NCBI RefSeq assembly: GCF_033153115.1
Contig: NW_026889750.1
Coordinates: 29,760,001 to 29,824,000, forward strand
From: Saccostrea echinata
Taxonomy: Eukaryota
Length of the DNA: 64,000 bases
Reading direction: 5' to 3'
Positions 34,130-63,660 of the stretch are shown here, piece by piece (the stretch's first letter is position 1; every line of letters starts with the position of its first letter). Both the position numbers and the translations under genes were made by a program. The notes under the pieces are model-generated. The model worked only from the letters and a program-made list of their open reading frames with translations. It searched no databases and was not told the origin of the DNA.

Positions 34130-35335
34130 CTATATAATATGTTGTATTCATATTTGAAGTCTATGTCCACACTTTGTATTTCATACAAATATACATCGAC
34201 AATTGTTACAAACTTTTCAATTACAGAAACTCTACAGCGCCTAGATATCGAACTTTTGATACATAATCCTCCAACATGTTCATGTTCACCCTACAACTAT
34301 AGTCCTGCTGGACACATCATTACTGGTGACGTCAATATAGTTAATAATGAGGACCTTAAATCACTTATTTTAAAAGGGCCAAAATTTACGGAACTCCAAT
34401 CTTTCAACCGGCATCATAGTGTCACAAATATTATACATTCTGTGGAAAATTACGCCAGACGATGGGCCAAATATGAAAAAGAAGACCTTGACACTTTGTC
34501 AGAATGGATTAAAAGTATCAGATGGATGTTGAAATCTCGCATTAAGCAATTGAGGAGGGGGGGGGCAATATGAAAACCATCTATCCTTCTGTCTTCCACA
34601 ATGCAGAAATGAAACAAGAATTGGATAGATTACACAATCAGTATGTACTGGTCCCAGCTAACAAAGCAGGTAACAACATTGTCTTTGTTTGTAAGACTCA
34701 TTATTTCAACTGTAGTTTTAGAGGAACTAGGATTTAATTTTGCAAGTAATAATCCAACTTAAAATATATCCATAGCCCTTTTTAAGGAGGAAATTCTTCA
34801 AAATTCTATGTCAGTTTTAAATATTTTAAATATTCATAACAATCAAAATGAATTTGTATTACCATACCTATACTGGATTCCAAAACTATGAAAATCCTTA
34901 CAAACAATTTGAAACAAAGATACATAGTGGGTTCCAACAAGCTCTTTTCTTTACTCCTCACTAACATATTTACAGCAATGAAGGAGAAAAATCAGAAGTA
35001 CTGTACAACAATATATTCGAGAAGTGGTGTAAATCAGATGTGGATACTAAAAATTCCAAGGAACTTTTAGAAAATTTGAAATTACAAAATTTTATCAAAA
35101 TCAATAACATTAAAACGTCACTTCGACTTTTTAACATTTTATACAACCATTCGAGGCTTTTTGACATCATAGACAGATGCTTTTTCAGTAAAAATGGAAC
35201 ATGTAAATATACTTACCTTGTCATTGGTCATTTGCAAAATTATTTGTTAGAAACATTTCGATTGTACACACAGGTACTCTAAAGTTGATATTTAAAAGAT
35301 GCTTGAGCTTCTGATTGACAATATCTAATTATCTA
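34130..35335 (+). mobile_element. PLE fragment, pre-RT and N-terminal RT (Naiad-type inferred)
   Basis: PTCSC..YSPAGHIITGDVNIVNNEDLKSLILKGPKF.E, YVLVPANKAGNNIVFVCK, LPYLYWIPK and SRSGVNQMWILK, with frameshifts. Confidence 0.8.
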
Positions 35336-36278: not shown

Positions 36279-39200
36279 TCATTGCCAGTACTTAAATGGT
36301 TTGTAGATTATTTGAGGAGTATATGCAAATGCTGTAACTGGTTGCTCAAACCTGAAAAAAATTGATAAACTGTTTCGAAGTCTTAATAATTTTTTTAAAT
36401 AGCTAGATATTGAAAAAAATGTTTTTTTCTTTTAATGAAAGAAAGACTAACTTAGTTTTCTTTTCATTCACCATCTCCCTGCTGCCCTTTTCCTCTTCTT
36501 GCTTCTTGCGAAGATAGAACAGGCTGATGATGACCGTTACTAGAATAAAAACGACAGCCGCCGAGACACCGAGCCCAATGCTTAATATCATGCCGTTATT
36601 ATCTGGCAAATACATAGATCTAGATTAAATTCAATATAATATCATGTGCACCACAAAGGCACATAATACGCCCGAAAGGATAATAGGTTATTACAAATTA
36701 CTTTACAGCAATGTTACACCATGCCTGCGGATACATCAATGACAAGGCGTAATGATTCTAGGTCTTACATTGTGTAAGAAATTGGACACGATTTGATAAA
36801 ATATCCAAAACGCAGACACGGTCAATGACCAACTTTTGGGTCGAGGAGCCGTTTCCCCCCGAAAATGTTGATTCTAGGTCTCATCTGTTTCATATTTGGA
36901 TATTTTACTAGAAAAAGACGTTAATGGTAATCTAACAACAAAGCTATATGTTAAGCGTAATGACTTTAATTTTTCAATCGTCAATTCACTTACTTATGCA
37001 GCAATATACCCTAATCACCTGCATATGGGATGTATATCTCTCAGTCGATTCGATACGCAAGAGCATGCTCTACGTATGTACAATTTCTACAACGAGGTAA
37101 GTTATTGACAAACAAGTTGATGAAACAAGAATATCAACAGTTTCGTTTAAAGTCATTATTTCGTAAGTTCTATGGTCGATACAATGACCTTGTCAGTAAT
37201 TACAATCTATCATTAAGTCATATGTTGACTGATGCTTTTCATACTAATTGTTAGGCCATTATTTACACACTGAATTGTCGACGAATTTTCCCGTTATTTC
37301 ACGATCATGACAAGGAGCAGACGGCGGGTGTGACCGGTCGGCAGAAGATGCTCACTCCTCCATGGCACCTGATCCAATCTCTGATGTTTTTGGAGGTTCG
37401 TGCTCTGCTCCCGATTTGTAGTGTTTTAATGGACTTTGAGCTTGAATACCGTTCGTTATCTCCATATTTCATTGTGCAAGATATGGTCCAGATACCATTT
37501 GATTATGCGCAGGCATAAAATGCAAAACGAGGTCACAGCAAGCTTCTGTTGGCTTGAAACACATCTCTCACCCAAGATACATAAGCTCAGAAGGTTTGAC
37601 GATCCCAAGCGTCTTTATGGTGAAATATAAACACAAACAAAAAACTTACAGACAGACAGGTATACCATACCATAATAAGATGCGAAAAAAAATTATAAAT
37701 TCATATCATATGAAATTCAACTTGAATAGTTATAATTTATCTCATTAAACAACATGGAAATGGTCATCATATTTATTTTTTAATCAAACTGTATCAACAA
37801 TTTCAGGAGTTCTGTGTATATTTGAATTATGTCAGACTCCCTTTCACAACATAAGTCATTTTACTTACCTGGTCTAACGTTGTTTCTGGAAGATAAGAAA
37901 AAAATGATTTCAAACGTTCATCATATTTTTTTTCAACTGTCGACCTATTATTTTATTTATATTCTATACATTGAATTTAAACAATATAGCATCATAACAC
38001 CTATGTACTTACACACACATCCCAAGATCTTCATTGCAGTACTCCCTTATAGAACATGTCACATATAACTGAGCTATTTCACATGCACGAGTTTGTCGCG
38101 TAAACGTCACTAGGAAAAAATCATTAAAAGGTTTTATATTGCCACTACTTCTTTCTGTGTCACTTAATTAGAGTGAAAGAACGTCTAATTTTTTAATTAT
38201 TGTATGCTTTTATACTTTCAACATATACATCTATGTGAATCAAAGTGTCCATTTTAAAAATATATAAGAGATTTTCGTAATTCAAACTCCAAGAAGATAC
38301 TAGTACATGTAAATTTTTTATGTATCGTTAGAACGTCAAGTCTACGACAAACAGCAAAATAAGTGCATAACTCTGGAGCAGGTTTAACAGTTTTCATTTA
38401 CAAAATGTGAACATACCATTCTCTGTTCTGTCGTTTGTCATCAGGGTGACGTTAGAAAATGATGTGGTTGACCCTCCGATATTTATAGAGTTGCCCCCAC
38501 TGGACAGGTTGGACAGGGTTTTGGAGAGTGCAGCTGTACTAGCAGTTTTATTGTCCCCGTCTATCACCACATCGTGTTCCACGGAGATGTCGCTCAAAGA
38601 GCGGGTGCTTCGTTTTCTTCTGACTGTTTTGGGTCTAAATTTGATAGAAAGCCAAATAAACGAGTACACACTTAAAGAGAAAGAAAAATATTGCCATCTA
38701 ATTTTACTCACACGACGATAATGTCTTTAATATGAATGCTTTTGAAGTTGTTGACTTTAGATCTGTAAAAGTTTTCTAACTGAAAAGATAAAAAAAAAAG
38801 GTTTCTGTTATATTCAAATTAACGTTAAGTAATTACACAAATTACAACCATTTGAAAGCATACTTTTTATTTTCTTAAATACATTACAAGCAGTTCAGAG
38901 TTTTTAAATTCATATGGTCGGTCACCCTCTTGTAGGAAATCATCTTTGGCTTACTTTATTAATTATTATAAAAATCAGGTTAGAATACAATTTAACGAAT
39001 TGAGAGAAACAAGTTACTATGCTCAGAATACATTACACATATACTATACATGAATAAAATCAGAAAAACAAGTTCCATAACTCAAAATCGTGATCATCTG
39101 GCAAATAAACCTTTGTGTTGAAAATATATTTATTTCGTGATCATTTTTGTCTTTCAATAATAAAATTCATCTTATACTTGCCTATTAACATGTAACGCAC

Positions 39201-45200: not shown

Positions 45201-48200
45201 CCAGAAAGGTGTTTCAACATCATTTTTGGGCGTAACTTATTTGTGACTTGAGATATCAATGATATATTTGGTAGGTATTTAGCCAATATCAAAAGACATA
45301 TGCTGAGTTATACACGTAGAAATTTATTCACATTGCCTGTATTTTTAGTGCAAGTTGATAAATATTCATTTTTTTTCAATTCACACATACATTGATGTTT
45401 AATATACTTCGTCATTTCAAATTACATTCAAAGCTAGTTAAAATCTACTTATTAAGAGCATTCTTCACTTACCGCCGTTTGACTCTCGGCGACTAGTTTA
45501 GTGTACTCTAGAGACGTCTTGTTGGCAACGTCGTTTACGTTAACATTAGACAGAGTTAACACTATTTCATACACTAACTCCTTTACAGCTGAAAATAAAG
45601 AGGAACTTTTCCTGATATATATTTATACATTATTGTGTTTCACTATGGAAAAAAAACTTGACAAATAATGAGGAATTGAGAAAGATTTTTGATTCTGACT
45701 TTCAAAAATGGTCATCAATATACTCGATAAGTATTGTATCAATGCATAAGTTTAAGTAAAATATATGTACTGTTATTCCATTGATGTATAGCTTGTGCTT
45801 TATTTCCAGATCCGTCCACCATATTGACCGTCAGAGAATACTCTCCGTTCCGAAGCTCTGTTCCGACCCATTTGTTATTACATGACACCTCTCTCACCTG
45901 TACTGGGGACTGAACTGTACAAACTGACGTCACTTCTTCGTTCGTTGTCCACGACAACATCATACTTCCGGCTGTTTTTAATGAGGGTATACCAGTCCAC
46001 TGCAGGGAGGGTGGTGTCACGTCCTCTGAAAATTTAGAGTCATATTCTAGTATGACATGCTTTAAACCTCATCATCTTCAGAGTTGACATGTGAATTACT
46101 TAAAGTCCACGAAAACGAGAGATTAGTTTGAATGTTTCATGGTTTCGTGTTAACATAAACTAGTTACTGAACTTTCTTTTACTCCAAACGCGTTTCCGCT
46201 ACACATTAGGGAACTTTGTCAACCTGTATAAATGACAACGCAGTACTACATGAGACTTTTGTAACAACTTGTGCATGGAATAAGTCGATCTTTGTATACC
46301 ATGGTAGTTATAGTGTTTATTCAATAGAAATAGCTAATCATGTATTGCATATGAAATATCCGAGCTAAACAACGATATTTTCACTCTTGGAATAAAGTTG
46401 TTGAAAAAATGCTCTGGTATTTACATTGTCGGTTTACCATTAATCCATCTGTATACATATGGTCCTCCGAAGTTTCCTGAAGAGTCCGTGACGGAGATCA
46501 CAAGTTTGTAAGATCCTGGGGGAAGTAACATACCCCTCCATCCTCCATCACATGACGATTTCCGGTAGAAGTTGGCGGGACCATTGACGACGCAGCTGCT
46601 GTTTACCGGCTCCGTGACAGCCCAGGTTATTGTGGCATTACTATATGTTCTCGAAGGTGCTTTTGAAAATGCTAGCCGTGGTCGGATAGTATCCACTAGG
46701 ACATTATTATATATATTAGTTTGTTTTTATTAAAACGAAAGTTATATATGTACTATGATTTACATATTTCAAAGTAATGATGATTCCTACGGTTCAAAAA
46801 TTTTTATTGGAACCTATAGGAAGTATCCAATTTTCATATTTTGCGATGCTATTTACATTTATATGTAAATAAATATTTATATCTATATGTTCCAAAATCA
46901 AAAAAGATGAAATATGATTATATTTCCATTTTAGATTTTGTTTCCTGGCTAGAATATAATCTCCACAAAGAATTCAACCGAGAAATTAACCGTTATAGAT
47001 TTCTTTCAAAACTGCATAGAGGCCATGATAAAACACACCTAAGAATTTAAAAAAATACGTTCTATGTGAACGATAACCAAAAATGTTTTTAGAAGTATTG
47101 TTTTAGGGTAAACTTAAGAGTAACAATCCTCAGACTTTAACTGTACATTAAATGAGATGCTAATGATGTCACTTTTACTTCTTACAAAGACATACCATTT
47201 CGCCAGTTATGAACAAAAGGACCAGCTGTGTTATTCCCTAGATCTACTGTTATAATGCTGAGTTTGTAATTTCCTCCCTGCATACTGCTACCAGACCAGG
47301 TACCAGAATTACACAAGAACACCTCTTTGTTGTTGGGCGTGGTTAATGTACACGTTGTCGATACTGGCTCATTCACAGACCACGTGATTTTTGCGTCATT
47401 TATTGTAAGGACATCAATTCGTGTAAATGTTAGAACAGGAGGAGTGACGTCCTCTATTAAAATGTTTAGAAAACAGTTAACTGTGATTTACCAAACCTTC
47501 TTTGGTAACTGTATAAACCTTTGTATAATAAGTGATATTTCAACATGTTTTTTTCATTATTCAAAAAATTGTATTCTAGTTAAGGATTTCAATTACTAGG
47601 ATACTTTTGCAGGACTCAAACCTACGCATTAAAAAAATTCAGCTATAACAAATATTTTAATACTGTCTCATGGAAATGAATTTCAAGTAAATGATAATGG
47701 GAAAAAATAACTTACTGTTGTACCACGTGTATTTGTACGTTGGCGCCGAATTTCTGGATTTATCCCTGGCTGTAATTTCTAATGTTACATTTCCCTCCGG
47801 CAAAAATATCCCATTCCAACTTCCATCACAGCCAGGAAACACTTGGCGCTGTACTGATGTTGTGATAACACATGTTGACGTAGCAAATTCGTTGAATGTC
47901 CACGTAATCGTTGCATTATCAGTAGATTTATGACAGTGAGGTGTATTTGTAAACTTCAATTCTGGGGGTTTTACGTCCCCTTAAATTAAGAAAAGAATTA
48001 CTTGCACAATTTAACAATACAATGATGGACAATACTACAAAATATCTCAAAAAAATAACATTTGACCTATAGCAATAAATAGTAACCTATAGAGAATTTC
48101 TTTTCTTAAACTATCGTTCCACAGTGTGATTTTAGGTGACAGAATGTGTGTTTTTTTTTAATCCAGTTGGGGTTGGAAGATCATTTTTAAGCCAAGCGGT

Positions 48201-51200
48201 ATTCAAACAGAAACATATTCCAGGTATGAATGGGATTAAAACACTTTTCACACAACAAGAGTGTGGTAGTTCGCAAGTACTACGTACTCAGTATACTTAT
48301 CAAAGGAGGATGTAGAGTGGAGATTTTAGGTATTTTAATAAAAAATATTCATGAAACATGAATGTATTTCGACTTACGCGAGTGAGTCAATTGGCAATTT
48401 TTGTGAGAAAGTGATTTTTTTGGAACCTGAACTTTACTTTTTACTTACACGACATCGTCAAAGATATTGCAAAATTACGGACTGTATCACTTTATGATCT
48501 CACCAACAGAAGCCAACAAGTTCACAACTTACTGTTATACCACTTATGCTGGAAAGGACCTGCCATGTTTAAAGATTCGTCATAGACTGTGACATTCAGA
48601 ACAAAATTTCCTTCTGGTAGATAGTCCTCGCTCCATCCTTTATCACACACCACTGAACGATAGAATGATGGACCCTCAATTTCACAAACTCCAGAAGCGA
48701 CCTCGTTAGTCACCCACGTGATGTTGGCTTTGCTAAGTGAACGTCTTGGTTTCCGCCTAAATGTGAGTATTGGAGGTGTAACGTCGACTAAAAACAATAT
48801 TTGAAATGCATTAGCTGTATATTTGTAAGGGGAACACATCAACATAAAAATTATGGTTAATTTCATTGATTTTATTAATATTTTACATTTCTTTCTACTG
48901 ATGTCATTTCTAGTTGAAACGGTCATGACCAAGAGCAGATATTGATTCGGGTATTATAAGATAGAGTTAAATAGAGGTTCAATAACCTGTGTGAGTTTCA
49001 TCCCGAGTTTCTTAATTTTTTAGTGTTAAAAGGACACGAGCTTGCAGAGTACAGGTACAAACTAGAAAACTGACAATCGGAGAGGGCCCCGCTAAGGGCT
49101 GTGGCTGTTTAAGGAAAGTGCCAACTGCATTTAGTTGTATACATCCAGGCATACATACAAACAGACAAATTGATATTATCCCGAAATGTATATGCGTATA
49201 GGTGCCTTGCTCTTATAGTAAAGTACTTTTAAAAAATGAAAAAAAAAGTTTCGTTGAAAGTTCACGAGTCATCGCATCACAATAAAAGCGTTGGCAGATG
49301 GACAGTTAGACGGACGGACGGACAGATAGACAGACGGACAGAAAATGTGATATTTCTATAGGGATCGCGCAATTTTCCTGCGAGACCCTTATTAATAGGG
49401 CTTCCTAGCACCAGAATCCCAAACCCAGTCGTAAAGAATTTTCTAAATTCTGGTAGAACACCCTTCCTCGTTAAAATACTCTCTTTGCCTCCTGGATGCC
49501 CGGGAGCAAAAAAAGATTTTCAAAGAATAAATGCATTTTGACTATGATATGATCTATAGAGACCCACCTGAACACCAGAATCCCTGACCAGGAGATAATT
49601 ACCTTCACAATTTTGGAAGAGGCACTTTGTTCATCAAAACCATGCACTTACTAGTAGTAGCTAAATATCCAAGAACAGAGATTTTCAGAGAATCAATGCA
49701 TTTTCACTATATGATCAATATAGTCACACCCTAACATCAGACCTCCTGATTTAGGGGCCATGAAATTCACAATTTTGGAAAAAGTGCTCATCAAAACTAT
49801 TTCCTTGCTTAATACCTAAAATCAAAGAAGAATATTTTTAAAGAATTCTAGCATTTTCACTAAAGATTATTTTTAGAAACCTACCCTAACACCTGAACCC
49901 CTGAACCAAGGGCCATGAATTTCACAATATCAGTAGAGGGCTCAATGATTGTTATAATCATATAAACAGTTTGACTACTTGATGTCCAGGAGTAAAAAAA
50001 GATTTTTGAAGATTGCAATGATTTTTATGGTTTTTCGTCCCACCCTTAGGGTCCAAGTGGGGCAAAGACCATAAAATTAACAATTTTCGTTCCCTTTGTC
50101 AAAGAAATGCCATGACATTTCAGAGAAGGCTAGAAATGTTCAAATATTAACGGATGTAGCACGACGACGGACGAAAACAGAAAGCAATGGGTCACCTGAG
50201 GGACTCAAGTTACCTAAAAATCAAGGAATGAGAGTTAGAAAAAAATCGGTAACTAAAGAGCACGTATTACGGAACCCTTTTTCTAGCATTGCAAAAACTG
50301 AATTTCTTCACATCTTATGGTATAATTACTTCGCGGATCATGGCAGATCACAGCAACCAATCAAAGGCTTTGCTGATCAAATGCTCGCAAGGAGTTCTCT
50401 AACATGTAAGAGAACCAAAATCAGAATAGTGATGACATCATATAGCTCTAATGGGAGAAGACATTTTCATACAACAGGTCGTCGGAAGGGTGTAAATTTT
50501 TATCCCTCAAGATCTTGACCATGTTGCAAAAAATGTTTTCGAAAATAATTAATTGTAGTTAACAGAAGTAACTTACAGTCGCAATGATTTATATTTTATG
50601 TTTTAAAAAAAAGTAAAATTTTATCAAGAATATTGATATATATTTTTTTAAAAATGATGCAGTTACTCCCATAAGTCACTTTATTTCATAAATCAAAAGC
50701 ATATTTTCTACTTTTTTCACATCGTCTGAAAAAGGAAAAATATGGTCTCTATAAGTTTAAGATTGTTACAATTGATTCCGATTTGTTTTTGACATTTCTC
50801 ATGTTTTCAGATGAAGTACGGATTTTTGCATTTGAATGTTTTGCTGATTAGTTGTTTTAGCCTTGGAAAATGAACGCATGGAAAATATACCTTTACACAA
50901 CATATTTTTATTCGCCAGTGTAGCAGATCAGAGGCATAGGTATCACTTTATCTAGAGTTCATTCCGATTCTGTCTGCCTGACTTTCTGAGAGGAGTCACA
51001 TTTTCACAAACAAGCCTCGACCTAGAACTATCTTATTTTAAATCATTTCATCGTGATATTTTATGGAAAAATAATTCTCAAATGCCATCATTATAGAAAT
51101 TAGAAATTGTTAGCTGAAATTCAAAATTGGATGTTTTCGCAAAAAAAAAAAAAAAAAAAAAAATGCCGTTATCATTGATAATTGGAGTCGATCTGCATAT

Positions 51201-54200
51201 ACATCTCCCGATGTATCTGGCATCAATGTGACTGAGCAAAACGCATCAGTAAACACTTAAGAGTAAATACATCGATGTTCTCTTTAAGAATTCTTGGTGC
51301 AAATGAAAATAAAAACATGAATATTCTACAATATTCATGAATCTATCATCGGGATCATTCATAAGCAGTTTTTGTCTAACATAAGCAGTGTCTAAGAAAT
51401 CCATTATTTCCATTGACTATCAGCCGGCAATCCGTGTTCATTGAACATTCTAGTTCATATAATCTAATATCACATAAAACAAACGAAAGGATACATAACA
51501 TTACCACTAAGAATAGTTACACCAAAGTGTAAGCATAATTATATACTGTTAGTCCAAGTGTGAAGAAATGGCCCTCCTTGAAGACCAACCAGATCCACCA
51601 AGGTGATGCTGATCTGGTATGAGCCACGCGGTAAGTCAACAGCCTCCCATTGACCATCACATAATTCGTTTGTCTTGGTGGTGTTTGGATATGTAATGAT
51701 ACAAGAGGAAGATGCAACAGGCTCGCTTGCATTCCACGTGATGGATGCATTGCTTTTGGTAAGCGAAGGGTTCAAGGTGAAACTGAGATTTGGGGGTGTC
51801 ATATCATCTGAAATACAAACCAGGACTAAGATTAAGAAGAAATATAGCAAACACAAAGGTGTCATTAAGCACTCTTGGAATACATTTTTCATAACAGTTG
51901 CTTTTGTGACAAATAGAATAATCTTAAAATTCTATTATACATATCATACAAGAGTTGTCCCAGAAAAACGCCAACTTTTTAAAGCTATATATGGCGTATT
52001 CAAATAATCAATATTAAGAAGATCTTACTATTTGTTTCATTACTTTATACATAAAGATAAGACTTTTCTGTAAATTACTCAATTTTAATCAATGACGTTT
52101 CAAAGATATCAAAAGTATAAAACAATAAAATATTTATTTACCGACTCCACAAAAAAATAGAGATTTGAATATATCCGCCTTAATTTGATCGCGTGACACT
52201 ATATTTAGACAATCAACAATAATGGCGAACAATGAGAACAAGAAGTAGACCAGCGAACACAAGCAGTTTAACAGACTAAGAGAATAAAGAAAGGAAGAGA
52301 CAAACACAGAGAGAAGTAAAGAGAAAATTTTGTTACAATATCATGTCCATTTATACCTCTTCTTCCATCATGGCTTTCTCGCCGAAATACGGCTGAAGTA
52401 TTGCCGACTCGGCGTTAAACAATAACAATCAATCAATCAATCCATCATGGCTTTAATGCTGTAGTTTCCCACAGTCATGTTCGTGGCGGATCTTATTAAT
52501 ATTCAACACAAAGTGTAAAGTCAATTTAATTATAGAAACAAGGGTTATTCGAGTTCAAAATCGGTAAAAGTTTTAATTTAAACGTACATAACATATATCA
52601 TGTTTTTTTTTTTTTACACTCAATTACGTATTATTATGTTTTAGTTCAGATAAGCCATGTATACCTTTAAATATCTCATAAAATATCTGACCAAAATGAT
52701 TCACTGGAAGAGGAACCTGATTGAACAAACAAGCATTCTGAGAGTATTGCATTAGCAATACTAGTCCCCTACCGGCAAGTGTAATCTGGTTCCCGTTAAA
52801 AATTGAAAATGCCATAATTCTGTCAAAAATCAATGAAGCGGAACGAAATGCAAACTTAATCTATAACTCATCAAGGTAAAGTTACATACCAAAAAACAGC
52901 TCAATATCTGCAAGCGTTCAGAAGAAAATTGCGGAAAACCCTGAGAAATTGAAAAGGTCATAATTCCGTCAAAAATCATTGAAGCGGAACGAAATTCAAA
53001 GTTGTTCTGTAACTCATCAAGATACACTCACATACCAAAAGTCAGCTCAATATCTGCAAGCATTTAGAAAAAAAGTGCGGAAAACCAAGTGGGACAGACA
53101 GACAGAGGGAAAGATAGACAAACAGACAGACAGACGGACGGACAGACTCAGAGGAAACCTATAGTCCCATCCGGTTTCACTAGTAGGGGACTAATAAACT
53201 GAAAAGTAAGAATCAGAACGTCATACGTGGAGACCAACTTCTCGAGAAGTTGGAATCATCATCAGGGTTGGAAAATGGTCTTTTCAAAAAATCCATTACG
53301 CGATCTTTAGAGTGTGTGAGAAAGGTATTTCAGTTACTAAATGAAAATCAAATGTACTGTCCAAATCCTGCTTCAAATGAAATTTTAAGATTCTCAAGAA
53401 AAAAAAAGCGCAATTCCTAAACAATTTTACAAACGCCAGGAACGTGTTGGGCCAACAGTAAATCAGTTTGACTGAAATAAAATTGTTATTTATAGAGATA
53501 CTGTATTAAAATTTATACCAAGCATGCATAAATTGTTGATTATTATGCATGCAAATTTTTTCAACTTTTTAATATCATTGATACAAAAAAATATTGTAAA
53601 TGTTGGCGTTTTTTCTGGGACAACCCTCGTATAATACTGGTTTGGAGATATGTGATCAAACTTACTGATAACCCACTGGTGAGTGTAAGGGCCGGCTTTG
53701 TTCCCAGACAAGTCTTCTATGTCAATACTGATGACGTAGTTTCCTGGTGCCAATTGGCTACTGAACGATTTACTGCACGAGACAACAGACGCACCGGTAG
53801 GCGTGGTTAAATTACATTGTTCCACTGAGAGAGCTTCGTTCACCGTCCAAGTCATGATGTACATTTCGTCGCTGTTCTTTTGTGATGGAGTTGACGTAAA
53901 GTTTAAGACAGGTGGGCTAAGGTCAACTATACCGAAAAAATAACAAAAACAGCAGTTGCAAGATAGTTGTTCATGATAACAAAATATCGTTTAATTTGCA
54001 GTCGGTTTTTTTAAAAAAAAATATTTTCGTAAGTAATGATGGATGAATTTGTACAAAGCAGGTGGGGTTCCTTACCAACAGTAAAATTCCAGAAGAAAGG
54101 TTGTGAGATCCCTGTCCAGTCTGTTGTACAGCTGAAAGAATCCGCAGCAACGGCTCCTGATATAAAACAGTTTTGCAGGTTACTAAGAAATCAGCTTTTT

Positions 54201-57200
54201 ATATAAGGTTACAAAGAAATGAGCTTTTATATGAAATTCGGAACACAAACGTTTGAAGGGCTGTAATCACCGAATACATTTCCTGTCTGGTTCAGCAAAA
54301 GTTTTTTGCAGTATGTCTTATCGTCTTTGGCAATTTTGTATGTCTTAGAATGGAAAGCACATGGCAACAATTATAGAATGGCATATCAATAAAAATTCTG
54401 AACATATTACCTGACTCCACAAGAACATAGTACTCTCCAGTAGGTAAAATAATGGAATCTGCAAAGAATTTTTTTTAACTTTAACACATCAGATCTGTAA
54501 ATAAATCTTTATCATGTTAGTTTAAAGTCAGAGTTACCTGGGGAGCCACCCAACGTGACTGTGACTTCCCTGCCGCCTGAGTCCGGAAAGGAGGCCACAG
54601 CTGGGTCTGTCAGATTCAGTTTGTGTGCCACAGTTCCGTTGGTATGATGTATTATAAGGAATTTTTCTGATGTCGGTCGAACGAACTAGCAAGAAAGAAA
54701 TGTAATATGTTTTAGGTCAATTTCAAGATGTTTATTTTGAATTTAAATAGACTAAAGATTTTTTTATATTTTTTTAAATTTTTTATTTATGATTTGTAAG
54801 TTGCTGTAGGTTTTTCCCTTTCTTTATACTTTTATTTGCAATATGGATCTTGCTTTTATACAGCCCAGTAGCTAAGTACTTCGGTACTAGCTTGAAATAC
54901 GGATATATATTTAATTGCTGTGGTGAAATTTAGAAATTTATTTCAAAAATTAAGGATTATCTCCCTCATGCATAACTCTGATCCTTTGACGTATTTGGCT
55001 CCAGTCTTTGGCACCCACTTTTTTCAGCTCTTCAAAGTTTTATTTAAATATTTCGGATTTCCAATGTGTCGGCATGAGCAATCACTGAAGAGACATAATT
55101 TGTCGAAATGCGCATCTTGTGCATCAAAATTGGTACCGTATAAGTTTTGCATGGAACTGATTGCTTCGGATCTGATTCATTCTGGAATGAGTTTTTCGTA
55201 TATTGAAGGTCAAGATATTATGAGCTATGCCTAAGAGATTGGCACTAGTCAATATGTTGTTGAGTGTGCCCCTCACCTTGTCAAAGGCCACAGATGATAA
55301 GTTTCCTTGTTCAAAGGTAACGGACTTTAATTTTTATGTTGGTAGATAGTTACCTTTCTGTTAAAACACATCTTTAATGTGTTTGTGAGTTTATCCTCAA
55401 TTTCTCGCAATGGCGTTAAACATCCTTTTGTTAGCTCTATTGCAGGTGGGGCTACAAAGAAAATGATATCATCTGAAAAGCAACAACAATGAAAATAGTT
55501 TTGATTTCCATTGTAAAATATTGATCTGGTATACAAAGACAGAATATCATCTAATCTTTACTCTTCTTCATTATGCAAAAATAATGTTTCATACATAACA
55601 AAAATTTTAAAACAAAGAACTTGAAAAGTATGATCCTAAAATATGGAACATTACTCAGGCAAACAATAAAACACGTAAACAGTATACTGCGAGGTGAATG
55701 ATATCAGATTACTTGGTATCATTCGAAGAGTTCTATGTTACCACTTACTTCCTTTCAGAAGATCAACACAGATCATACTGGAAGTTAATCTGAAAGAGCA
55801 TATTTTCGCAATTAATCGAAATGGTTTATTATCATTTAATTACAAAGTGTCAGGTATTAACAATATCAAATGATACGAAGAACATCCACTTAATTGCGCG
55901 TCCAATAGTTTTTGTCTACCAGTCGGTCTACACTTGACAGAATACTCTTGTAAATTAACCATGCCTACTTATTATTTATTTCTGCATTGAAGCACAGCAA
56001 GTGCAGTCCACTTTGACTCTGCGTCGGTGTCCATGTGACTGTAATTGACCATTCCCTTCCGGAGCTACCATAGGGAGACAAGCTGGACTTCCCAATTCCT
56101 ACCGGACCCATTATGGATAATTTTGTTATCCTTTAAATTGATATATGACATCTAAAGTTAATAATCAAATGACTACTATCTATTTTTAATAAGAAAGACA
56201 TACATGAATACTGTAAAAGAAAAAGCAACGGTTCCCACTGTCACAAACTTGATGTGGAAAGCAAGACGAAACGGACATGACCATTCAGTTCCCTTTGTAT
56301 TCCTTTATGTTAGTTTCTCTTACTTTCCTCTTAACTGTTTTGTGGGTAATGGAGTATATTCATGTGGTGAACACAAGCGTGATACTTGCTTCAAACATTC
56401 TAACAGTCTCTTTGTCTTTGTGTGACGTTTGTATATTTTGCCTTTGCCTTGTTTTCTACTTTCCTTCAACAAGTACAGCATTCGCTGGAGATCCTTGTGC
56501 CGAAGAAAACATGAATCAGGTAATCAAAGCAATGAAATACAATTTTTCGTTTCGTTTTGTTTTCATCCAGTTCTTATATGTTTTTCTCTCGTGTAGTCTC
56601 GATTTCGTGATTTGTTCTGAATTGCATCTACTTTGTGCACGTTGCCCTACTTTCCTCTTGAATTTACCTTTTTGTTGCACTACGCTCAGTTTATATTTTT
56701 TATGTATTGTGAAAACCATTGCTCTTTTTCCCCACTAATTCAGGTTCTGTGAATCTACTTTCAAGAAACCAAATACACGTATAATATCTAAGTTTTGTGA
56801 CAAAACCCAGGCTTAACACTTACGTATGAGAGGCACTTGTAGTTCTGGCCACAAGAATTTTTGTGAATGTGTTTGAGACAACATAACAGCTGCCTTCGGT
56901 AGGAGTAGGATCAACAAAGATAGGAGCATCAGTGCACTTGAGTGGGTCGTCAAACACTACTATTAGAAACTGAAGGGGAACCGAGCTGAGCACAGTTGCC
57001 GGAGCCGTGGTTGAGAAGTCTTCGATTTGTACGTGCACACCAAAGGTTCCGGTTCTGGTCGTGTTATAGGAAAACATGCAAGTGTCCTACAGAAAAAAGA
57101 AACATTGACTGGTCAGGTTGAAAAAAGAAAGCCTGCATGTATAAATACCAAATTACATGTAATCCATTAAAAAGCTGTTATAGAAGTGGAGATAATTCAG

Positions 57201-60200
57201 ATAAGAGCTATAGACGAACAATTAGTCACAAGAAAGAGGTAATATAACGCAATTTTAAAATTTCATGCAGAATTCATAAACACAAAATTCTGACAATTCA
57301 GTAAGTTTGACCTCTTCATCGGTAAGGGTCTCGGGCATGGTCATATGGGGGTATTTTGAGAAAATATTCATGAATTTTTTTTTCCAAACGTGCTCTTACA
57401 TTTTATAATCCATGATATCTCGCTGCATGTGTCGGAATCAATGAACACTTTTCTTGGGAACACCTTTTCTTGAGATTTAACAATCATATTTTCAACTTAA
57501 ATAACATAGTCAAAAGTATGCAAATTTACAAGTCATATTTTAACAAGGCAGGCTTTGCTAGTGACATGCATTAGTATTCCTTGTTTATCGTTACACAGAG
57601 AAAACTGCGTTTAATTCTATTCATTGCATTGTATGTTAAGGTCATTAAGACATTTTTAGGGCAGGTAAATCCATTGAAATTTCTTTCAATACTGTGTCAC
57701 CAAGACCTCGGATAAAGTACGAGTCCATTCACACTGCCCAAAAAGGTCTGTTTTCAATTTGCTCAAACTATAGATTTCACAACCGCCAATTACCAAAATT
57801 GAAAATTCTCTAAGATTTTTTTTCTATTTTATTTATTTTTGGATAGTTAGCAAAACCCTTCTAAAATTGTTATGCTTATAAATATAAAAGTTTATTTTTG
57901 ATATACAAACCTTGTCTATTGTACTTCCCGAGAGTCCATTACAAAGATACCCACATTCGTCAGTGTCGCTCCCGCTGGAAAAACGACATCTGACAATATC
58001 CCCATCAGCATCAATCACTGCAACAAAAGTGTGAAGTGTTGCACGAAGTTAAAATACGTATATGTACTTGTAGTATGAAAAAAGTAAAGATAGCTTACAG
58101 TGGTCGATCTCAAGAAAACTTACAAACAACATAAATCTGTGAACAGAGCAAAAACAAAAGCAAGGACCCCAAGAAATTCCAGAGGTGGAATCAGGTGCCT
58201 AGGAGGAGTAAGCATCCCCTCTCGACCTGTCACATCCGCCTTGAGCCTTATGTATGTCAAGTAGGCGTAATATTCCGAAGTCAAATTTAGTATAAAACAA
58301 ATGCCTAACAATTGATATGAAATATGTGAGACAAAATACGACTCAATGATTGGTTATTTTGCTTACAATGTCAATAAACATGTAACGACCATAGAATTTA
58401 TGAAATGCTGACTTTAAACGAGGTTGTTGAAATTCCTATAACTTTGTCAGTAGCCTGCCTCGGTTTAAAAATTGATCAACTCAAAGCATTCTCTTGAATA
58501 TCGAATAAGTGGAGACACAAACACGATATGCAGGTGAAAGTGGAATATTACTACGTCAATTGGGAGAGATGACGATGGAAAAGCTGAGTTCATCTCCTTT
58601 GTCATACAGTTTAATTGTTAGTTGGCCCTTATCGTCAATAGTAAGTGAATCGGATGTGGCTGATATATATTCCATAAGGTTATAACTGTACCTGGAATTC
58701 TGAATGTGTGTGGACAATTATAGAGAAGGCGAATTATTGGCGCCATGGTAACTACTGGGGAGGAGTTTATGACCCCGGTGTCCACCCTCGGCGCTGTGTT
58801 GGCTGTCATGGTCATCCTAACATTTTTTGATGAAGCACCAGTGGTCAAAGTCTGCCAACAACACTGCTCCATTCTGGGAAGGAAAAAAATTGCTTATTCT
58901 TATTTTGAGACAAGAATTTGATAATGTATGGGTAGGTTTGATTTCAAAAGAAATGTGCTTGGGAAAACGATTGTCAATTTTATAAAACATTTACACATAA
59001 GATGCCATGAAAATATAGAAATTGCAAAATGTTGACTTTAAACAAAATATCCTTGTATCATCAACTTATTTGTCAAGAGTTTGTCTCGTTTTAGAAATTG
59101 TTCGTTCGTAAAAAAAAATGCTCTTGCGTATTGAATCAACTCCAAATGCATGTGATAATGGTACATTGTTATTTATGTATAAATAATTAGGGGAAGGTGA
59201 TGATTAAAAAAAAGTTGAAGTCATCACGTATATCAAGTTTAGTTGTTGGTTTGCCATCAACGTATTTCTCTAATAAAATATGTCAATATGAAACTGATTT
59301 GTCAGACTCTGTGGTGTCTTTTATTTTGAGTACAAAGGGTTCTATCGAAGCAAGGAGAATATTGTTAATTGACAAAATGTCGTCGATATATCCAAATCTT
59401 GATTTGAAGGACACAGCCAGAGACTTTTTCTTTTCATGTTGAAGTTTTTTAATAAATTCTGTTCCAAAGGAAAACAGAGGCACAATTAGTTCCCATGAGA
59501 AGTCCAACAGATTGTTGGAAAACCTGGTCTTCCAAAACTACATAGATATTGTCAATCACAAACTCGAACATATTTTTATCATCAACTTCGGAGTACCTAT
59601 GCGTACAATCAGAATGTTTTAAACCAAAATATGTTTGCAAATGACCAATGACAAGGTAAGTAAATTTGCGAGTTCCATTTTTATTAAAAACGCAGTTGTC
59701 AATAATGTCTAAAAGCCTAGTTTTTATTCTATCATGGGAAATGGTAATAAAAGTGTTGAAAAGTCGTACGCTTTAATGCTGTTGATTTTGCTAAAATTTT
59801 GTCACTTCAACTTTCAAAAAAAAAATTATTTTGTGAGGAATAAAGTAAGAAGGTTGTTAGAAAATTTCCTAGAACTCGCTATGTATCTTTGTTAGTATGG
59901 ACTTTATGTAGTTTAAGAATCTAGTATAGGTATGATTAATCAAATTCAATTTGTTTGTTTGGAACATTAAAAATATTTAAAACTGATATGTGATTTTGAA
60001 GAATTTCCTCCTTAAAAAGCGAACTATGATTATAAGTTGGATTACCACTTGTGGAATTAAATCTAAGTTTTTCTAAAATACAATTATAATAATGAGCCTT
60101 AAAAACAAATGCAATATTGTTATCTGCTTTGTCAGCTGGAACCAGTATATATTGATCGTGTAAAATATCTAATTCTTTTTTCACTGCTGAATTACTGAAG

Positions 60201-63200
60201 ACAGCAGGATAGATGGTTTTCATATATTGCCCCTCAACCATTTTACGCGAGGTTATGACATCCATCTTATTCTTTAATCCATTTTGACAAAGTGTCAAGG
60301 TCTTATCCTTCAGATTTGACCAATCGTCTGGCATAATCTTCGACAGAATTCATAACATTAAGAAATGTTTACGCTCATCACGAAATCTAACTTAGATACT
60401 GAAGCATAACTTCTCTAATTAGAGAATTCCTTTTTGCACACCAAGTATTGCATCTCGGTGTTGTTTCATCATTTAAGGTTTAGCACATCTTAAGAATCAT
60501 TGTTTTGTTTACCTAAATACGTAGAATCATAGAATCATCTTAAGAATCATAGCTTTGTTTACCTAAATACGTAGTTGATCCCCGGCGTCGGGAGAGTAAA
60601 CGTGAAGGTTCCCTCGCCTAAAGACCAGTTCTCGCTGGAACTATAAGCAATGCATTTCCCATGCATTGAGCTGATCTGTGTGTTGCACCCCGTCCTGCAG
60701 TACAGCTTACCATCGACCGTTATTAGACCCTGGGAAGAAATCTTGCTGTCGTCACAGCTAGCTCCACTGTATGTACGTCTCCAAGCCATCTGGTAGGATA
60801 TTTCAATCTGCAATGGTCACATTTGGATTTTAAAATTTTAAGAATAATGTAATCGTAAAAATACTTGTGGTCCTCAGTAAGAAAATAAGGGATATGTCCT
60901 TGTAATTAAAAATTCTAATAATGGCTTTCATAGTGAACTTGTTTATGTTGTGTGTGTCGCTGATCTGAGATATTTTAGGCAAAAATAAAGTTATGATTTT
61001 GAATTTAATTCATGGGAAAGTGAAATGGTAGCATTTCCAATATCCACATTGTGGTCTAGGATGATGATTTGTACTTTTTTTTTTATCTGGGTTTGTTTTG
61101 TTTTGAATTTATATCTACACATGGCAAACAACACTTACAATATAATTTTCTCGCCCAAATTCAAATATTAAGAACTAAATCATAAAATAAAGTTAAACGG
61201 TAAAAACTCACTGAAGTAGTATATGGAGTAAGAGAATGCAACCTGAAAGACAGACTAACACGACATTTTTATGAACAAAAAAAAGAAGAAGAAAAGAGCA
61301 AGTGTTTTAAACCGTAGAAGGAGTACACAGGAAAAAGTATACGTCTTGGTATACTCAAGGATGGGAAACCCAGAATTTTAATCTTACTTAACATCAAAAG
61401 CAGTTGTGAGCAAGGAATACCGAGAATGCAAGAGAATGGAAGGACATGCGAAGATTAGGAAAAAGAGACAATACCAGACAGAACTATAAAAAAAAAAACT
61501 CAAAAAGTCTGCTTCTTCAAAATACATAGACTGCAATTGCCTCGGAATATATATAAAGATCGATGCAAGAGAAGAGTAAAAAGAAAATGTGTAAAACAAT
61601 GTGACTAGTTATGAATCTAATTAATTGTGTTTTCTTTCTTTTAATATCTGGTATATAGGCTAATGCTTGTTAACAATGATTCTATAAGTTCAAGATAAGA
61701 TGTCGAGAATATTTAAACCATTAGTTTATTGTAGTTTTAAGTACAGACTTGGAATTGGCGACAAGTTTTGAAAACTTGTCACCCCTTTCTCTTATTCCAT
61801 GAATGCAAATGTCAATCTACAGACAAACTTTAGTGGAATCCAATATGTAGTGATGTGAAATAATAATAAATATTGAGTGAATATTGACAATTACATTTAG
61901 AAGAAAGATTATATATGTACTAAAAAAAAGTTTGTTTTTAAAGAGAGAAGACATTTCAGGAAACGCGTTTTATGGAAATAATAACTACAGTAAAACTCGG
62001 TTACAGCAAAGTCCTGGGGGCCTGTAAATTGACTTCGTTATTTACGCAATTTATTATCCGTATAACCAATTTGTTAAAGTATAGATAGCGAATTCGCAAT
62101 ATACATATGCACATGTTTTCCTTCAAGTTTGATTACTGATTATATGTCCGGGGATGTATTAAATACAAAATTAACATTGGATAACAAATTCTTTTCGATG
62201 AATTTCATAATAAATAAAAATAGTAACGAAAAATTACATACGTCGACTCAATATATCTCAATAAACTCGAAATAAAAGACACCACAGAGACTGCCATATC
62301 TGTTTCATATTTGGATGTTTTACTGGCTTTAGACGTCGATGACCAACTAACAACTTAACTTTATTACAAATATGATGTCTTCTGCTTTTCCTTCTTCAGC
62401 TACCCCTATTTATGCAGTAATATTCCACTTATTACTTGCAGCAGATGTTTATGATTCCCAACTGATTCGATACGCAAAAAACATATTATGATGTACGATC
62501 AATTTTTTAACTGAAACAGGCTACTGACAAATTAATTTATGTAACAGAGCTTAAAACAATCTCGTTTAAAGTCAGCATTTTGCGAAATCTGTGATCAGAA
62601 ATATGACCCTGTTTGCAAATACAACTTAACGTTTTGTCGTATTTTTAATCGCATATTTCATACTAATTGTTTTACCACTTTATACTTTTTGACTACGGAT
62701 TTAGCTGATCAAATACAGAGGGAGGGGATGCTTACTTCTCCTGAGCATTTGATCACCTCTAGTCTGTTTTTGTCCTGTTCACGGTTTATATAGTACAGGA
62801 TTTATGAAAATAATAACTGTTCGTTATCTTCGAATTCACCTTTGATAATAACATCTGTTGAAGTGTATACACAGAATCAATTCATTGCAGAATAGCTCGC
62901 TACCATTTCACAGACATTTTTTTCCCTAGCTTTGAGTACAACAAAAATTGTTCATAACTAATTTTTTTTAAAAAGCCCATTTTCTAGTAATTTTTTCTAC
63001 ATGTTAAACATGCAAATGAGTAAATGCGTAAAAAAAATCCCATGGAAACGTCCAAGCATTTTACGTGCACTGCACGTACCAACTCTAGAAAAACTTTGTG
63101 AATTTTAATTATGATATAAAATGTCAACAGTTTAGGATACAGTTAAAAAGTTTATGAAATCATAAACTTTGTGAATTTTACTTTTAATTGTCAACAGTTC

Positions 63201-63660
63201 AAAATTAAGTTTAAAAGTTGATAGAATCATTACAAAACATGATTGATATAAATTGACCTTTCATAAAGCAATTTATTTTAGTCATTTAAGTTATGTTTAA
63301 AATGAATTCGCAAAAATATATCATACTTTTTATGATAAATTTGAAATATTTTGGAGTAAAAACCATTGAAATCGACCTTTTACAGTTTAAAATTCCGAAA
63401 GTACCCTACATTGATATACTTGTCAAATGCAAAAAATTTCCAAAGTGAAGTTGGAACAAAAATAATAAATACTTTAGTGAGACTGAAGGTCAGCAAATAG
63501 ATATACAAATCCTAAAAAAAAAAAAAAATAAATAACCCGCTAACAACAACTGTACCTGTTGAGGTGATGATGTTGGCTTCCAAGAAATGGATCCGCCTCT
63601 GAAATGACTACAGGTAACAAAGGACATCAGAAAAAGAAATATATATGTCTTCAGCAGCAT
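36279..63660 (-). CDS. Uncharacterised Sib/integrin-beta-like type I membrane protein with SbsA-Ig, 7 Ig-like repeats, SEA-like and EGF-like domains (about 1343 aa)
   Basis: 25 coding exons in transcript order: 63660-63556, 60807-60563, 58873-58692, 58017-57911, 57086-56824, 56130-55969, 55789-55749, 55451-55354, 54685-54538, 54458-54411, 54156-54076, 53926-53666, 51807-51547, 48787-48533, 47979-47716, 47453-47196, 46695-46438, 46025-45771, 45588-45473, 38779-38712, 38634-38417, 38109-38013, 37885-37869, 36602-36452, 36351-36279. Total 4032 nt, GT-AG, open frame. Signal peptide MLLKTYIFLFLMSFVTC then SHFRGGSISW; also NSSPV, DADGDIVRCRF..EC, VQIEDF..SSVPLQF and TM ILSIGLGVSAAVVFILVTVIISLFYL-RKK. 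AATAAA on the minus strand at 36043-36038. Confidence 0.88.
36880..37470 (+). mobile_element. PLE 3' fragment inside a HINE-like remnant (about 36640-37700), intronic
   Basis: SYLDILLEKDVNGNLTTKLY, YISQSIRYARACS..LKSLFRKFYGRYNDLV, stop, then the conserved 3' tail. Confidence 0.8.
39329..44198. repeat. Near-identical tandem triplication (units of 1740, 1567 and about 1560 bp) in an intron
   Basis: Unit start aatacgtgaaagacaagtgc at 39329, 41069 and 42636. Identical spurious ORFs recur at exactly 1567-bp spacing. Confidence 0.95.
39544..45386. mobile_element. Second, diverged copy of the Kolobok-like element
   Basis: Left end gggcgaattcaaaaataatgaccc, right end caattcacac. Colinear with 21748-27530 but lacks both nested insertions. 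Confidence 0.8.
40075..40548. repeat. 43-bp minisatellite, 11 copies (7 copies each at about 41814-42115 and 43381-43682)
   Basis: Unit ttaccttattttgctgtactctggacatctagtatggttttat, with variant gttgcac units in a repeated AAB pattern. Confidence 0.95.
49060..50220 (-). mobile_element. Two adjacent HINE elements (about 49060-49395 and 49396-50220)
   Basis: (gacg/gaca) microsatellites, ~160-170-bp degenerate repeats and terminal hairpin gggtcacctgagggactcaagttacct. The second belongs to the same family as 1729-3125, inverted. Confidence 0.7.
52378..52440 (+). mobile_element. 63-bp 5'-truncated retroposon 3' end with 14-bp TSD
   Basis: tccatcatggcttt duplicated at 52364-77 and 52441-54, with a (caat)n tail. 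Confidence 0.8.
52728..53197 (-). mobile_element. HINE nested in the mariner-like element
   Basis: subTIR tagtcccctac / gtaggggacta, (gaca)n microsatellite and two ~145-bp repeats. Confidence 0.75.
55074..55125 (+). ncRNA. Minimal type I hammerhead ribozyme (PLE/retrozyme type)
   Basis: CUGAAGA (55085-91), stem II gaca-taatt-tgtc, GAAA (55105-08), palindromic stem III ugcgca, cleavage triplet AUC (55114-16). Stem I (gcaauca / uugugc) is imperfect. Confidence 0.8.
58130..58675 (-). mobile_element. PLE 3' fragment in an intron
   Basis: Decayed KLYDK, NIPLSPAY and LIRYSR remnants plus the conserved 3' tail at about 58175-58240. Confidence 0.7.
59000..60400 (-). mobile_element. PLE RT fragment in an intron
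   Basis: LHDQYILVPADKADNNIAFV, YDF.T, QVFQQSVGLLMGTNCA, FGYIDDILSINN and KIKDTTES. Confidence 0.8.
62240..62830 (+). mobile_element. PLE 3' fragment in the first coding intron
   Basis: LEIKDTTE..SYLDVLL, LCSNIPL, QLIRYA remnants and a degenerate 3' tail. Confidence 0.7.

What the first reader, a model, noticed from the sequence alone, without database searches (positions are those of the whole stretch)
36279..63660. Mosaic cell-surface receptor/adhesin combining Sib-like and bacterial-type Ig domains with a metazoan SEA-EGF-TM stalk
Seen: an intact 25-exon ORF with signal peptide, HFRGGxISW start, NSSP / DxDGDxVRCR / VQIEDF..SSVPLQF motifs, an SbsA(Big_5)-like domain, 7 Ig-like repeats, SEA-like and EGF-like modules, TM and tail. 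Known: this N-terminal signature occurs in Dictyostelium Sib adhesion proteins, secreted bacterial proteins and poorly characterised invertebrate 'integrin beta-like' proteins. Inference: a patchily distributed, possibly bacterially derived adhesion or microbe-recognition head mounted on a mucin-type stalk. I do not recognise this architecture as described. The tail lacks NPxY but has a YxxPhi motif (YKPF). This is the best candidate for a new system in the window.
Basis: partly seen in the sequence, partly recalled or inferred. Interest (0 to 1): 0.75.

Follow-up and report, generated by a model that had tools for sequence, protein, structure and literature searches.

The report
Oyster receptor with ancient adhesin tip
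This intact oyster gene encodes a predicted cell-surface protein whose outer tip is shared with bacterial surface proteins and with many corals, molluscs, echinoderms, amphioxus and lamprey proteins; it likely arose by reshuffling older animal genes rather than by recent transfer from bacteria, and its tips are predicted to pair with each other, which would make it a likely calcium-dependent adhesion protein.

Summary
Real gene. A 25-exon minus-strand frame (63660-36279, 1343 aa) rebuilds cleanly and matches Saccostrea echinata LOC133196641 in all but 4 residues. Layout: signal peptide, four Ig-fold head domains (H1-H4), seven one-exon Ig repeats, a SEA-like domain with a furin-type site, a four-cysteine module, one membrane helix, short tail. 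The repeat+SEA layout was found only in oysters. The head is not oyster-specific: it tips ZP, CUB, EGF, SRCR, adhesion-GPCR and giant CARDB/RHS proteins from cnidarians to lamprey, and rare bacterial surface proteins. Trees place head and repeats among animal sequences; residues 7-677 are collinear with the Nematostella and crinoid RHS giants, the likely donors. It is not a Sib (no VWA hit, no NPxY), has no mucin PTS region or full EGF, and YKPF is not conserved. An orthologue's H1-H2 was predicted to homodimerise (0.48, best control 0.04) around an invariant acidic junction, but that surface is not specially conserved. Best reading: calcium-stiffened, head-to-head adhesion protein with a sheddable ectodomain (0.4). 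New variant of a known kind.

The parts
63556..63660 (-). Exon 1, aa 1-35: signal peptide and start of head domain H1 (SHFRGG motif)
60563..60807 (-). Exon 2, aa 36-116: H1 (SIBA-E_N-like Ig-fold sandwich)
58692..58873 (-). Exon 3, aa 117-177: end of H1 (CCW), NSSP linker, start of H2
57911..58017 (-). Exon 4, aa 178-213: H2 with D180-x-D182-x-D184 and E198
56824..57086 (-). Exon 5, aa 214-300: end of H2 (E235-D236, SSVPLQF), start of H3
55969..56130 (-). Exon 6, aa 301-354: H3 (Ig fold)
55749..55789 (-). Exon 7, aa 355-368: end of H3
55354..55451 (-). Exon 8, aa 369-401: H4 (CopC/Big_5-like)
54538..54685 (-). Exon 9, aa 402-450: H4
54411..54458 (-). Exon 10, aa 451-466: H4
54076..54156 (-). 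Exon 11, aa 467-493: end of H4
53666..53926 (-). Exon 12: Ig repeat R1 (phase 1-1)
51547..51807 (-). Exon 13: Ig repeat R2
48533..48787 (-). Exon 14: Ig repeat R3
47716..47979 (-). Exon 15: Ig repeat R4
47196..47453 (-). Exon 16: Ig repeat R5
46438..46695 (-). Exon 17: Ig repeat R6
45771..46025 (-). Exon 18: Ig repeat R7
45473..45588 (-). Exon 19, aa 1098-1136: SEA-like domain, first part
38712..38779 (-). Exon 20, aa 1137-1158: SEA-like domain
38417..38634 (-). Exon 21, aa 1159-1231: SEA-like domain with RRKR (1164-1167), predicted furin-type site
38013..38109 (-). Exon 22, aa 1232-1263: four-cysteine module (C-x8-C-x5-C-x6-C), not a full EGF
37869..37885 (-). Exon 23: 17-nt micro-exon, missing from the database model, supported by orthologue sequences
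36452..36602 (-). Exon 24, aa 1270-1319: membrane helix (about 1272-1302) and charged juxtamembrane tail
36279..36351 (-). Exon 25, aa 1320-1343: tail end with aromatic motif (YKPFKYW) and stop; no NPxY

Best explanation
This is an intact oyster gene for a predicted single-pass surface protein whose two outermost Ig-fold domains likely bind calcium at their junction and are predicted to pair with the same domains of a second molecule, so it likely works as a head-to-head adhesion or cross-linking protein held out on a rod of Ig repeats and likely released by furin-type cutting in its SEA-like domain. Shown: exon structure, domain order, membrane helix, family membership, invariant acidic residues, relatives. 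Inferred: (1) signal peptide and 25 sequons put it through the secretory route; (2) N153, D180, D182, D184, E198, E235, D236 bind Ca2+ and lock H1 on H2, as the DxNDN/DxD/xD motifs do in cadherins (layout recalled; homology to cadherins not detected); (3) H3, H4 and seven repeats form a spacer of very roughly 40 nm (about 4 nm per Ig domain, recalled), tuned by exon duplication (7 or 9 repeats in members that keep SEA and helix); (4) a proprotein convertase cuts at RRKR, the SEA halves stay clasped, and force or proteolysis sheds the ectodomain; (5) the short tail serves sorting rather than talin coupling. Origin (inferred): head plus first repeats come from the animal CARDB/RHS giant family, the first repeat was amplified, and a SEA-4Cys-TM end like that of another head-bearing oyster gene was joined on.
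For: Model and database match. Acidic residues: N153, D180, D184, E198, D236 in 31 of 31 animal-side rows, D182 and E235 in 29 of 31; D180 in 19 of 19, N153 and D236 in 17 of 19 bacterial rows. Homodimer of the S. cucullata orthologue P0002 18-265 with four Ca: score 0.48, best of 3 controls 0.04; mark reached by 21 of 30 solved homodimers and 0 of 23 monomers (microbes), 17 of 29 and 0 of 30 for eukaryotes; runs agree in at least 93% of contacts, pLDDT at least 86; reciprocal H1-to-H2 contacts at 88-94 and 177-183. No solved sequence relative of the head. In bacteria the same H1 sits at or near the tip of He_PIG/Cadherin_3/HYR/PKD stalks. RxKR in 5 of 7 members, aligned to the G-SLIV position of the SEA of oyster paralogue P0186 (hhalign 86%, E 5e-6, 111 columns). 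Collinearity of aa 7-677 with Nematostella P0107 (34%, E 2e-99) and crinoid P0091 (33%, E 3e-100); trees.
Against: The dimer job used the orthologue, without alignment, with a ligand outside the calibration; only 1 of 7 eukaryotic homodimers with no older solved relative passed, so a pass may be from memory of similar folds. Interface positions are no more conserved than random non-Cys positions (0.52 vs 0.49, 2650 of 10000 draws as high; oysters 0.82 vs 0.78, 1699 of 10000). This protein has N95 (a sequon) next to the interface where the orthologue has D. H2 vs cadherin repeats: hhalign probability 0.29%. The model cannot tell cis from trans pairing. Two of 7 members lack the furin site; a profile search scored P0186's SEA at only 4.2 bits. 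The repeat-tree clade is 91/95, below the tool's starred mark, on 87 columns. No expression or localisation data.
Confidence: 0.4

Rival explanations
1. The tip binds something foreign or extracellular (microbial surface, glycan, matrix) and the protein is a tethered, sheddable pattern-binding or decoy receptor of gill, gut or haemocytes.
For: [quoted passage not shown]
Against: No lectin or ligand-binding fold stands out for H1 (best Z 7.0, rmsd 2.9-3.4, generic Ig/FN3); heads are 61-69% identical across oyster genera and paralogues in H1, not hypervariable; tail has no conserved signalling motif.
Confidence: 0.28
2. A structural glycocalyx, mucus or shell-interface protein: heads pair side by side on the same cell or cross-link shed ectodomains, with no cell-cell adhesion.
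For: 25 sequons; SEA with furin site; the same head sits on ZP and tectorin-like matrix proteins; a ZP protein is in coral skeletal matrix (PMC4890752 passages; whether it has this head not checked); the dimer prediction fits cis as well.
Against: No PTS region; the predicted contacts are H1 against H2 of the partner, which suits a crossed or antiparallel pair better than a parallel one (inference).
Confidence: 0.22
3. A Sib/integrin-beta-like receptor coupling substrate to talin.
For: Sub-threshold SIBA-E_N and Ig_SIBA-E_2nd hits; an orthologue is auto-named 'integrin beta-like protein A'.
Against: No VWA hit, no DxSxS in this protein, NPxY in 0 of 7 tails; these are the features that define Sib's likeness to integrin beta.
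Confidence: 0.04
4. Head or repeats were acquired recently from a bacterium by the oyster lineage.
For: Clear bacterial homologues of both.
Against: 18 exons with ordinary introns; the 7 oyster heads lie among 31 animal-side rows split from 19 bacterial rows at 100/99; oyster repeat profile scores 72-75 bits on first repeats of the animal RHS giants (and one unnamed record), at most 41 on long prokaryote-like proteins.
Confidence: 0.03
5. Unexpressed or mis-joined model.
For: No reads were laid on the junctions.
Against: Open 4-kb frame over 24 GT-AG introns, independent database model, 60-67% identical full-length relatives in Crassostrea.
Confidence: 0.03

Closest known systems
Dictyostelium SibA-E (Pfam PF24907 SIBA-E_N, PF24908, PF24910)
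   Same: Type I membrane protein; N-terminal Ig-fold domains related to H1-H3; adhesion role proposed here by analogy.
   Different: No VWA hit, no NPxY, no GxxxG; has Big_5-like H4, Big_13-type repeats and SEA. No Sib sequence could be fetched, so the relation rests on Pfam models. A survey reports Sib only in Dictyostelia (bioRxiv 2020.04.29.069435, passages).
Animal CARDB/RHS giant proteins (Nematostella LOC116611783 P0107/P0198, crinoid LOC117108507 P0091, Mercenaria LOC123559098 P0121)
   Same: Collinear H1-H4 plus first two repeats; first repeat groups with oyster repeats.
   Different: They continue into HYR_4C, CARDB, YD/RHS core and DUF7619; the oyster gene has seven repeats and SEA-Cys-TM instead. 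Uncharacterised as far as my searches reach.
Other head-bearing animal proteins: coral and amphioxus ZP proteins, lamprey VWD-C8-TIL-ZP protein, oyster adhesion GPCR LOC111112680, oyster SRCR-EGF giant LOC111125451
   Same: Same four-domain head after the signal peptide; LOC111125451 also ends in SEA-4Cys-TM.
   Different: Different stalks and outputs; LOC111125451 keeps a G-SLIV autoproteolysis-type motif.
Bacterial SIBA-E_N-tipped surface proteins (e.g. L032 Flavipsychrobacter, L011 Marinimicrobium, L005, L037)
   Same: Signal peptide then HFRGGxI[ST]W, CC pair, N..P linker, DxDxD-type and ED residues, on Ig-type stalks.
   Different: Lack the animal disulphide pattern; function unknown; no Big_5-like H4 or SEA seen in the parts read.
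Transmembrane mucins with SEA-EGF-TM ends (MUC3/13/17 type; recalled)
   Same: Membrane-proximal SEA-like domain, cysteine module, one helix, short tail.
   Different: No PTS region, four not six cysteines, basic site instead of G-SVVV.
Cadherins (recalled layout of Ca ligands and X-dimer)
   Same: Acidic residues at an interdomain junction in a similar order; predicted dimer centred on that junction.
   Different: No detectable homology; only one such junction; no catenin-binding tail.

Membership tests
Sib family | N-terminal SIBA-E_N and following Ig domains | tested here: inconclusive
   18.1 bits vs cut-off 28.1 and E 0.05 for the second domain; homologous heads P0010 and P0024 pass the cut-off
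Sib family | Extracellular VWA domain | tested here: not met
   No VWA Pfam hit at E up to 1; every ectodomain segment otherwise assigned; no DxSxS
Sib family | Two cytoplasmic NPxY motifs | tested here: not met
   0 of 7 members
Sib family | GxxxG in the membrane helix | tested here: not met
   Only SxxxG and GxxxS at the helix start (sequence)
Sib family | Talin binding; needed for substrate adhesion | not testable with these tools
   Needs pull-down and knock-down
Transmembrane mucin | PTS-rich O-glycosylated region | tested here: not met
   Max S+T+P 42% in 50-aa windows
Transmembrane mucin | SEA domain | tested here: inconclusive
   Pfam E 0.019 and 0.0089, below cut-off; Atlas 0.79, a lead; hhalign 86% to paralogue SEA-like region; not folded
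Transmembrane mucin | G-SVVV autoproteolysis motif | tested here: not met
   0 of 7; RxKR at that place in 5 of 7
EGF-like domain | Six cysteines, EGF profile hit | tested here: not met
   Four cysteines; no hit
Cadherin superfamily | Cadherin repeat homology | tested here: not met
   hhalign probability 0.12-5% for H1, H2, H3, R; no Pfam cadherin hit
Cadherin superfamily | Ca2+-binding interdomain junction | not testable with these tools
   Candidate residues invariant; binding not measured
Big_5/SbsA/CopC-like domain (H4) | Profile or fold match | tested here: met
   CopC Z 9.3, rmsd 2.4, 95 aligned on orthologue model; homologue passes Big_5 cut-off; no hit in this protein itself
Bacterial-type Ig repeat (Big_3_3/Big_13) | Pfam score over cut-off | tested here: met
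   35.4 and 34.6 bits vs 27, summed over repeats
Animal CARDB/RHS giant family | H1-H4 plus repeat N-terminus | tested here: met
Animal CARDB/RHS giant family | CARDB, YD/RHS core, DUF7619 | tested here: not met
   No such hit in P0001

The most novel reading that the evidence does not exclude
H1-H2 is an unrecognised calcium-dependent, self-pairing adhesion module, independent of cadherins, that entered early animals from bacteria inside a giant CARDB/RHS membrane protein (a second bacterial RHS import besides teneurin) and was then shuffled onto ZP, tectorin-like, adhesion-GPCR, SRCR and SEA receptors; the oyster gene is a compact, testable member.
Probability: 0.2. Interest if true: 0.82.

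Novelty: new variant of a known kind. Interest (0 to 1): 0.5.

Why it matters
The oyster gene by itself is one more lineage-specific product of exon shuffling. Its value is as a handle on the head module, which has no solved relative, is auto-labelled 'integrin beta-like' although it lacks every integrin-like feature, and tips very different receptors from corals to lamprey as well as amoebal Sib and bacterial surface proteins. If it self-pairs with calcium, it would explain one function across coral ZP matrix proteins, an oyster adhesion GPCR and Sib's untested tip, and a 245-residue construct makes that directly testable.

Tried and rejected
No whole genome is held. RNA runs for 45450-54700: no RNA holder listed; no reads laid. 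Exon-by-exon Pfam scan: no hit over cut-off. Profile search for long relatives reached only 3582-5000 aa proteins; 3 of 9 hits carried the head, 6 were Fat-type cadherins presumably matched through EGF columns. NCBIfam: nothing over cut-off for P0001. PDB sequence searches: none for P0001 at E up to 1; family profile best E 0.14; head-led profile hit only ZP/EGF positions. Foldseek on the 667-aa model gave generic multi-Ig rows with TM under 0.2; on H1 no E under 0.001; VIA on H1 none at Z 8 or more; H2 and the SEA region were not folded alone. ESM Atlas for aa 18-262: unnamed rotifer-rich clusters (0.92-0.93) and one cluster with He_PIG in 14% of members. No second copy of head, repeat or SEA elsewhere in the window. 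A histidine-brace copper site was considered and dropped: the His is predicted second in the mature chain and is Glu in P0002. Sialic-acid binding from the H3 match to SraP/GspB rows was dropped: those rows tie with generic Ig rows. Cornillon 2006 is not held. Literature searches without a description of this family: (6 gene ids, 0 papers); supplements were not read and may list these gene ids in expression or proteome tables. PMC7148315 (passage) concerns a VWA-type integrin beta; PMC3239186 (passages) gave nothing relevant.
Full report
Observation. I rebuilt the gene from the minus strand by hand-picked splice sites. Twenty-five exons from 63660 to 36279 give an open frame of 1343 aa with GT-AG at all 24 introns, a hydrophobic N-terminus, one membrane helix near 1272-1302 and 25 N-glycosylation sequons. 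A search with exon 5 returned a 100% identical 1343-aa record, Saccostrea echinata LOC133196641 (P0001), which differs from my model at 4 residues. The difference is a 17-nt micro-exon; 4 of 6 other family members read like the micro-exon form. No reads could be laid.

Anatomy. An AlphaFold model of the S. cucullata orthologue P0002 (75% identical to P0001 in the alignment; mean pLDDT 75, head mostly 80-95) shows four beta-sandwich domains before the repeats. H1 folded alone (pLDDT 88) is an Ig/FN3-like sandwich with no close solved match (best Z 7.0). H3 matches generic Ig domains (Z 9.2) and H4 CopC (Z 9.3, rmsd 2.4, 95 aligned), in line with Big_5 on a homologue. Pfam gives SIBA-E_N and Ig_SIBA-E_2nd below cut-off, Big_3_3 and Big_13 above, SEA below, and no VWA or EGF. 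The seven repeats are single phase 1-1 exons, 30-44% identical. The SEA-like region aligns with the SEA-like end of oyster paralogue P0186 (hhalign 86%, 111 columns), with RRKR where P0186 has G-SLIV, and both are followed by a four-cysteine module and the helix; a plain profile search scored this match weakly (4.2 bits, same call). RxKR is in 5 of 7 members, NPxY in 0 of 7, YxxPhi in 1 of 7. There is no PTS region.

Relatives in animals. The head search returned 35 proteins. By local profiles, partly built from these same proteins, 33 of 35 carry H1-H3 and 7 of 35, all oysters, carry repeats plus SEA; two of the seven are models that start in H3, and one has nine repeats. The others join the head to ZP, CUB, D8C, EGF, sushi, VWD-C8-TIL or GAIN-7TM domains in corals, clam, scallops, starfish, crinoid, amphioxus and lamprey. 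A full HMMER scan with repeat 6 gave 163 hits, 150 listed; besides two oyster records, four carried the head as well: Nematostella, crinoid and Mercenaria records and one unnamed record. The Nematostella and crinoid proteins go on into HYR_4C, CARDB, YD/RHS core and DUF7619, with a C-terminal membrane helix in the longer forms; the Mercenaria model shows HYR_4C and CARDB. Residues 7-677 of P0001 are collinear with the first two at 33-34% identity.

Relatives in bacteria. A motif scan of one genome per prokaryotic species gave 39 loci; 29 read the motif in an open frame, 27 of these with a head-profile hit and 23 with a downstream D-x-[ND]-x-D. Most follow a signal peptide. Of 10 scanned, 9 matched SIBA-E_N at E under 0.01 (3 over cut-off), on He_PIG, Cadherin_3, HYR, PKD or TSP3 stalks. 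The domain is rare: 4 of 301 genomes in the phylum of a Bacteroidota carrier and 1 of 301 in that of a Pseudomonadota carrier, each count including the seed genome; 0 of 14 controls.

Origin. In an H1-H2 tree of 50 rows (29 named animal, 2 unnamed, 19 of the 29 bacterial; P0186 dropped; no Sib available) the animal side splits from bacteria at 100/99 and the seven oyster-family heads form one group at 100/100 inside it. In a repeat tree of 70 rows, 25 of 27 animal-side rows, all 21 oyster repeats and the first repeats of the four giants, group at 91/95 on 87 columns. So the bacterial-looking parts reached oysters through older animal genes. Whether they entered animals by an ancient transfer is open: the tree is unrooted and the bacterial sample is motif-biased.

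Mechanism. Seven polar residues at the H1-H2 junction and in H2 are near-invariant in animals and mostly kept in bacteria. Their order recalls cadherin calcium ligands (recalled), although profile comparison finds no homology. A homodimer job on P0002 18-265 with calcium scored 0.48 against a best control of 0.04 (mark reached by 21 of 30 solved homodimers and 0 of 23 monomers in microbes; 17 of 29 and 0 of 30 in eukaryotes, but 1 of 7 without an older solved relative), with at least 93% contact agreement and pLDDT at least 86; H1 loops touch the DxDxD loop of the partner's H2. Against this, the interface is not more conserved than background and this protein has a sequon at N95 beside it. I give 0.4 to calcium-stiffened head-to-head adhesion with a sheddable ectodomain, 0.28 to binding of foreign or matrix ligands, 0.22 to a structural coat role.

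Comparison. SibA's likeness to integrin beta rests on VWA, a glycine-rich helix and NPxY-dependent talin binding (passages of PMC12686525, PMC9197732, PMC3002383 and bioRxiv 2020.04.29.069435); none is met here, so this is not a Sib, though it shares Sib's tip by Pfam. It is not a mucin or a cadherin by the tests listed. Eight literature searches found no description of the oyster family, the animal head module or the CARDB/RHS giants; I saw only listings and passages, no supplements. Teneurin papers state that cnidarians lack teneurin (passages of PMC3278476 and bioRxiv 2025.11.11.687626), so the Nematostella RHS protein is something else.

Verdict. Observation confirmed; interpretation partly supported. 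A new, oyster-restricted arrangement of known kinds of parts, with an under-studied ancient tip module that is the real point of interest. Interest 0.5.

Noticed in passing
P0107/P0198 (Nematostella LOC116611783), P0091 (crinoid LOC117108507), P0121 (Mercenaria LOC123559098): Giant animal proteins with head, Ig repeats, HYR_4C, CARDB and, in the first two species, YD/RHS core and DUF7619; longer forms end in a membrane helix, and the P0198 tail has NPxY. A non-teneurin RHS family in animals; no description found.
   Followed up: partly
P0009 (C. virginica LOC111112680): Adhesion GPCR (EGF, Ig, HRM, GAIN, 7tm_2) tipped by the same four-domain head.
   Followed up: no
P0035 (Lampetra fluviatilis): VWD-C8-TIL x3 plus ZP protein with this head at the N-terminus, where alpha-tectorin has NIDO (recalled).
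   Followed up: no
P0186 (C. virginica LOC111125451): 4998-aa head-SRCR-EGF protein ending in SEA-like domain with G-SLIV, four-cysteine module and helix; on a contig of the same length as two members of the present family.
   Followed up: partly
window 39329-44198 (intron 19): About three tandem copies of a roughly 1.57-kb unit, 98-99.6% identical, each with a 43-bp minisatellite (7-11 copies); recent amplification or assembly artefact.
   Followed up: partly
window about 13400-16900, + strand: Exons of another gene; one has a W2 domain hit (E 0.00024, below cut-off); looks like BZW/eIF5-mimic (recalled).
   Followed up: partly
window 4101-4370, 19744-20061, 21406-21744, 34118-35280, 36880-37250, 59190-60350: Scattered decayed copies of one reverse-transcriptase-like repeat (similar translations; no Pfam hit in the pieces scanned; class recalled).
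   Followed up: no
L001-L039 (e.g. L003, L011, L016): A tight group of mostly gammaproteobacterial giant surface proteins with SIBA-E_N tip, Cadherin_3, He_PIG and TSP3 repeats, some behind DUF4347; one verrucomicrobial row lies inside the group.
   Followed up: partly
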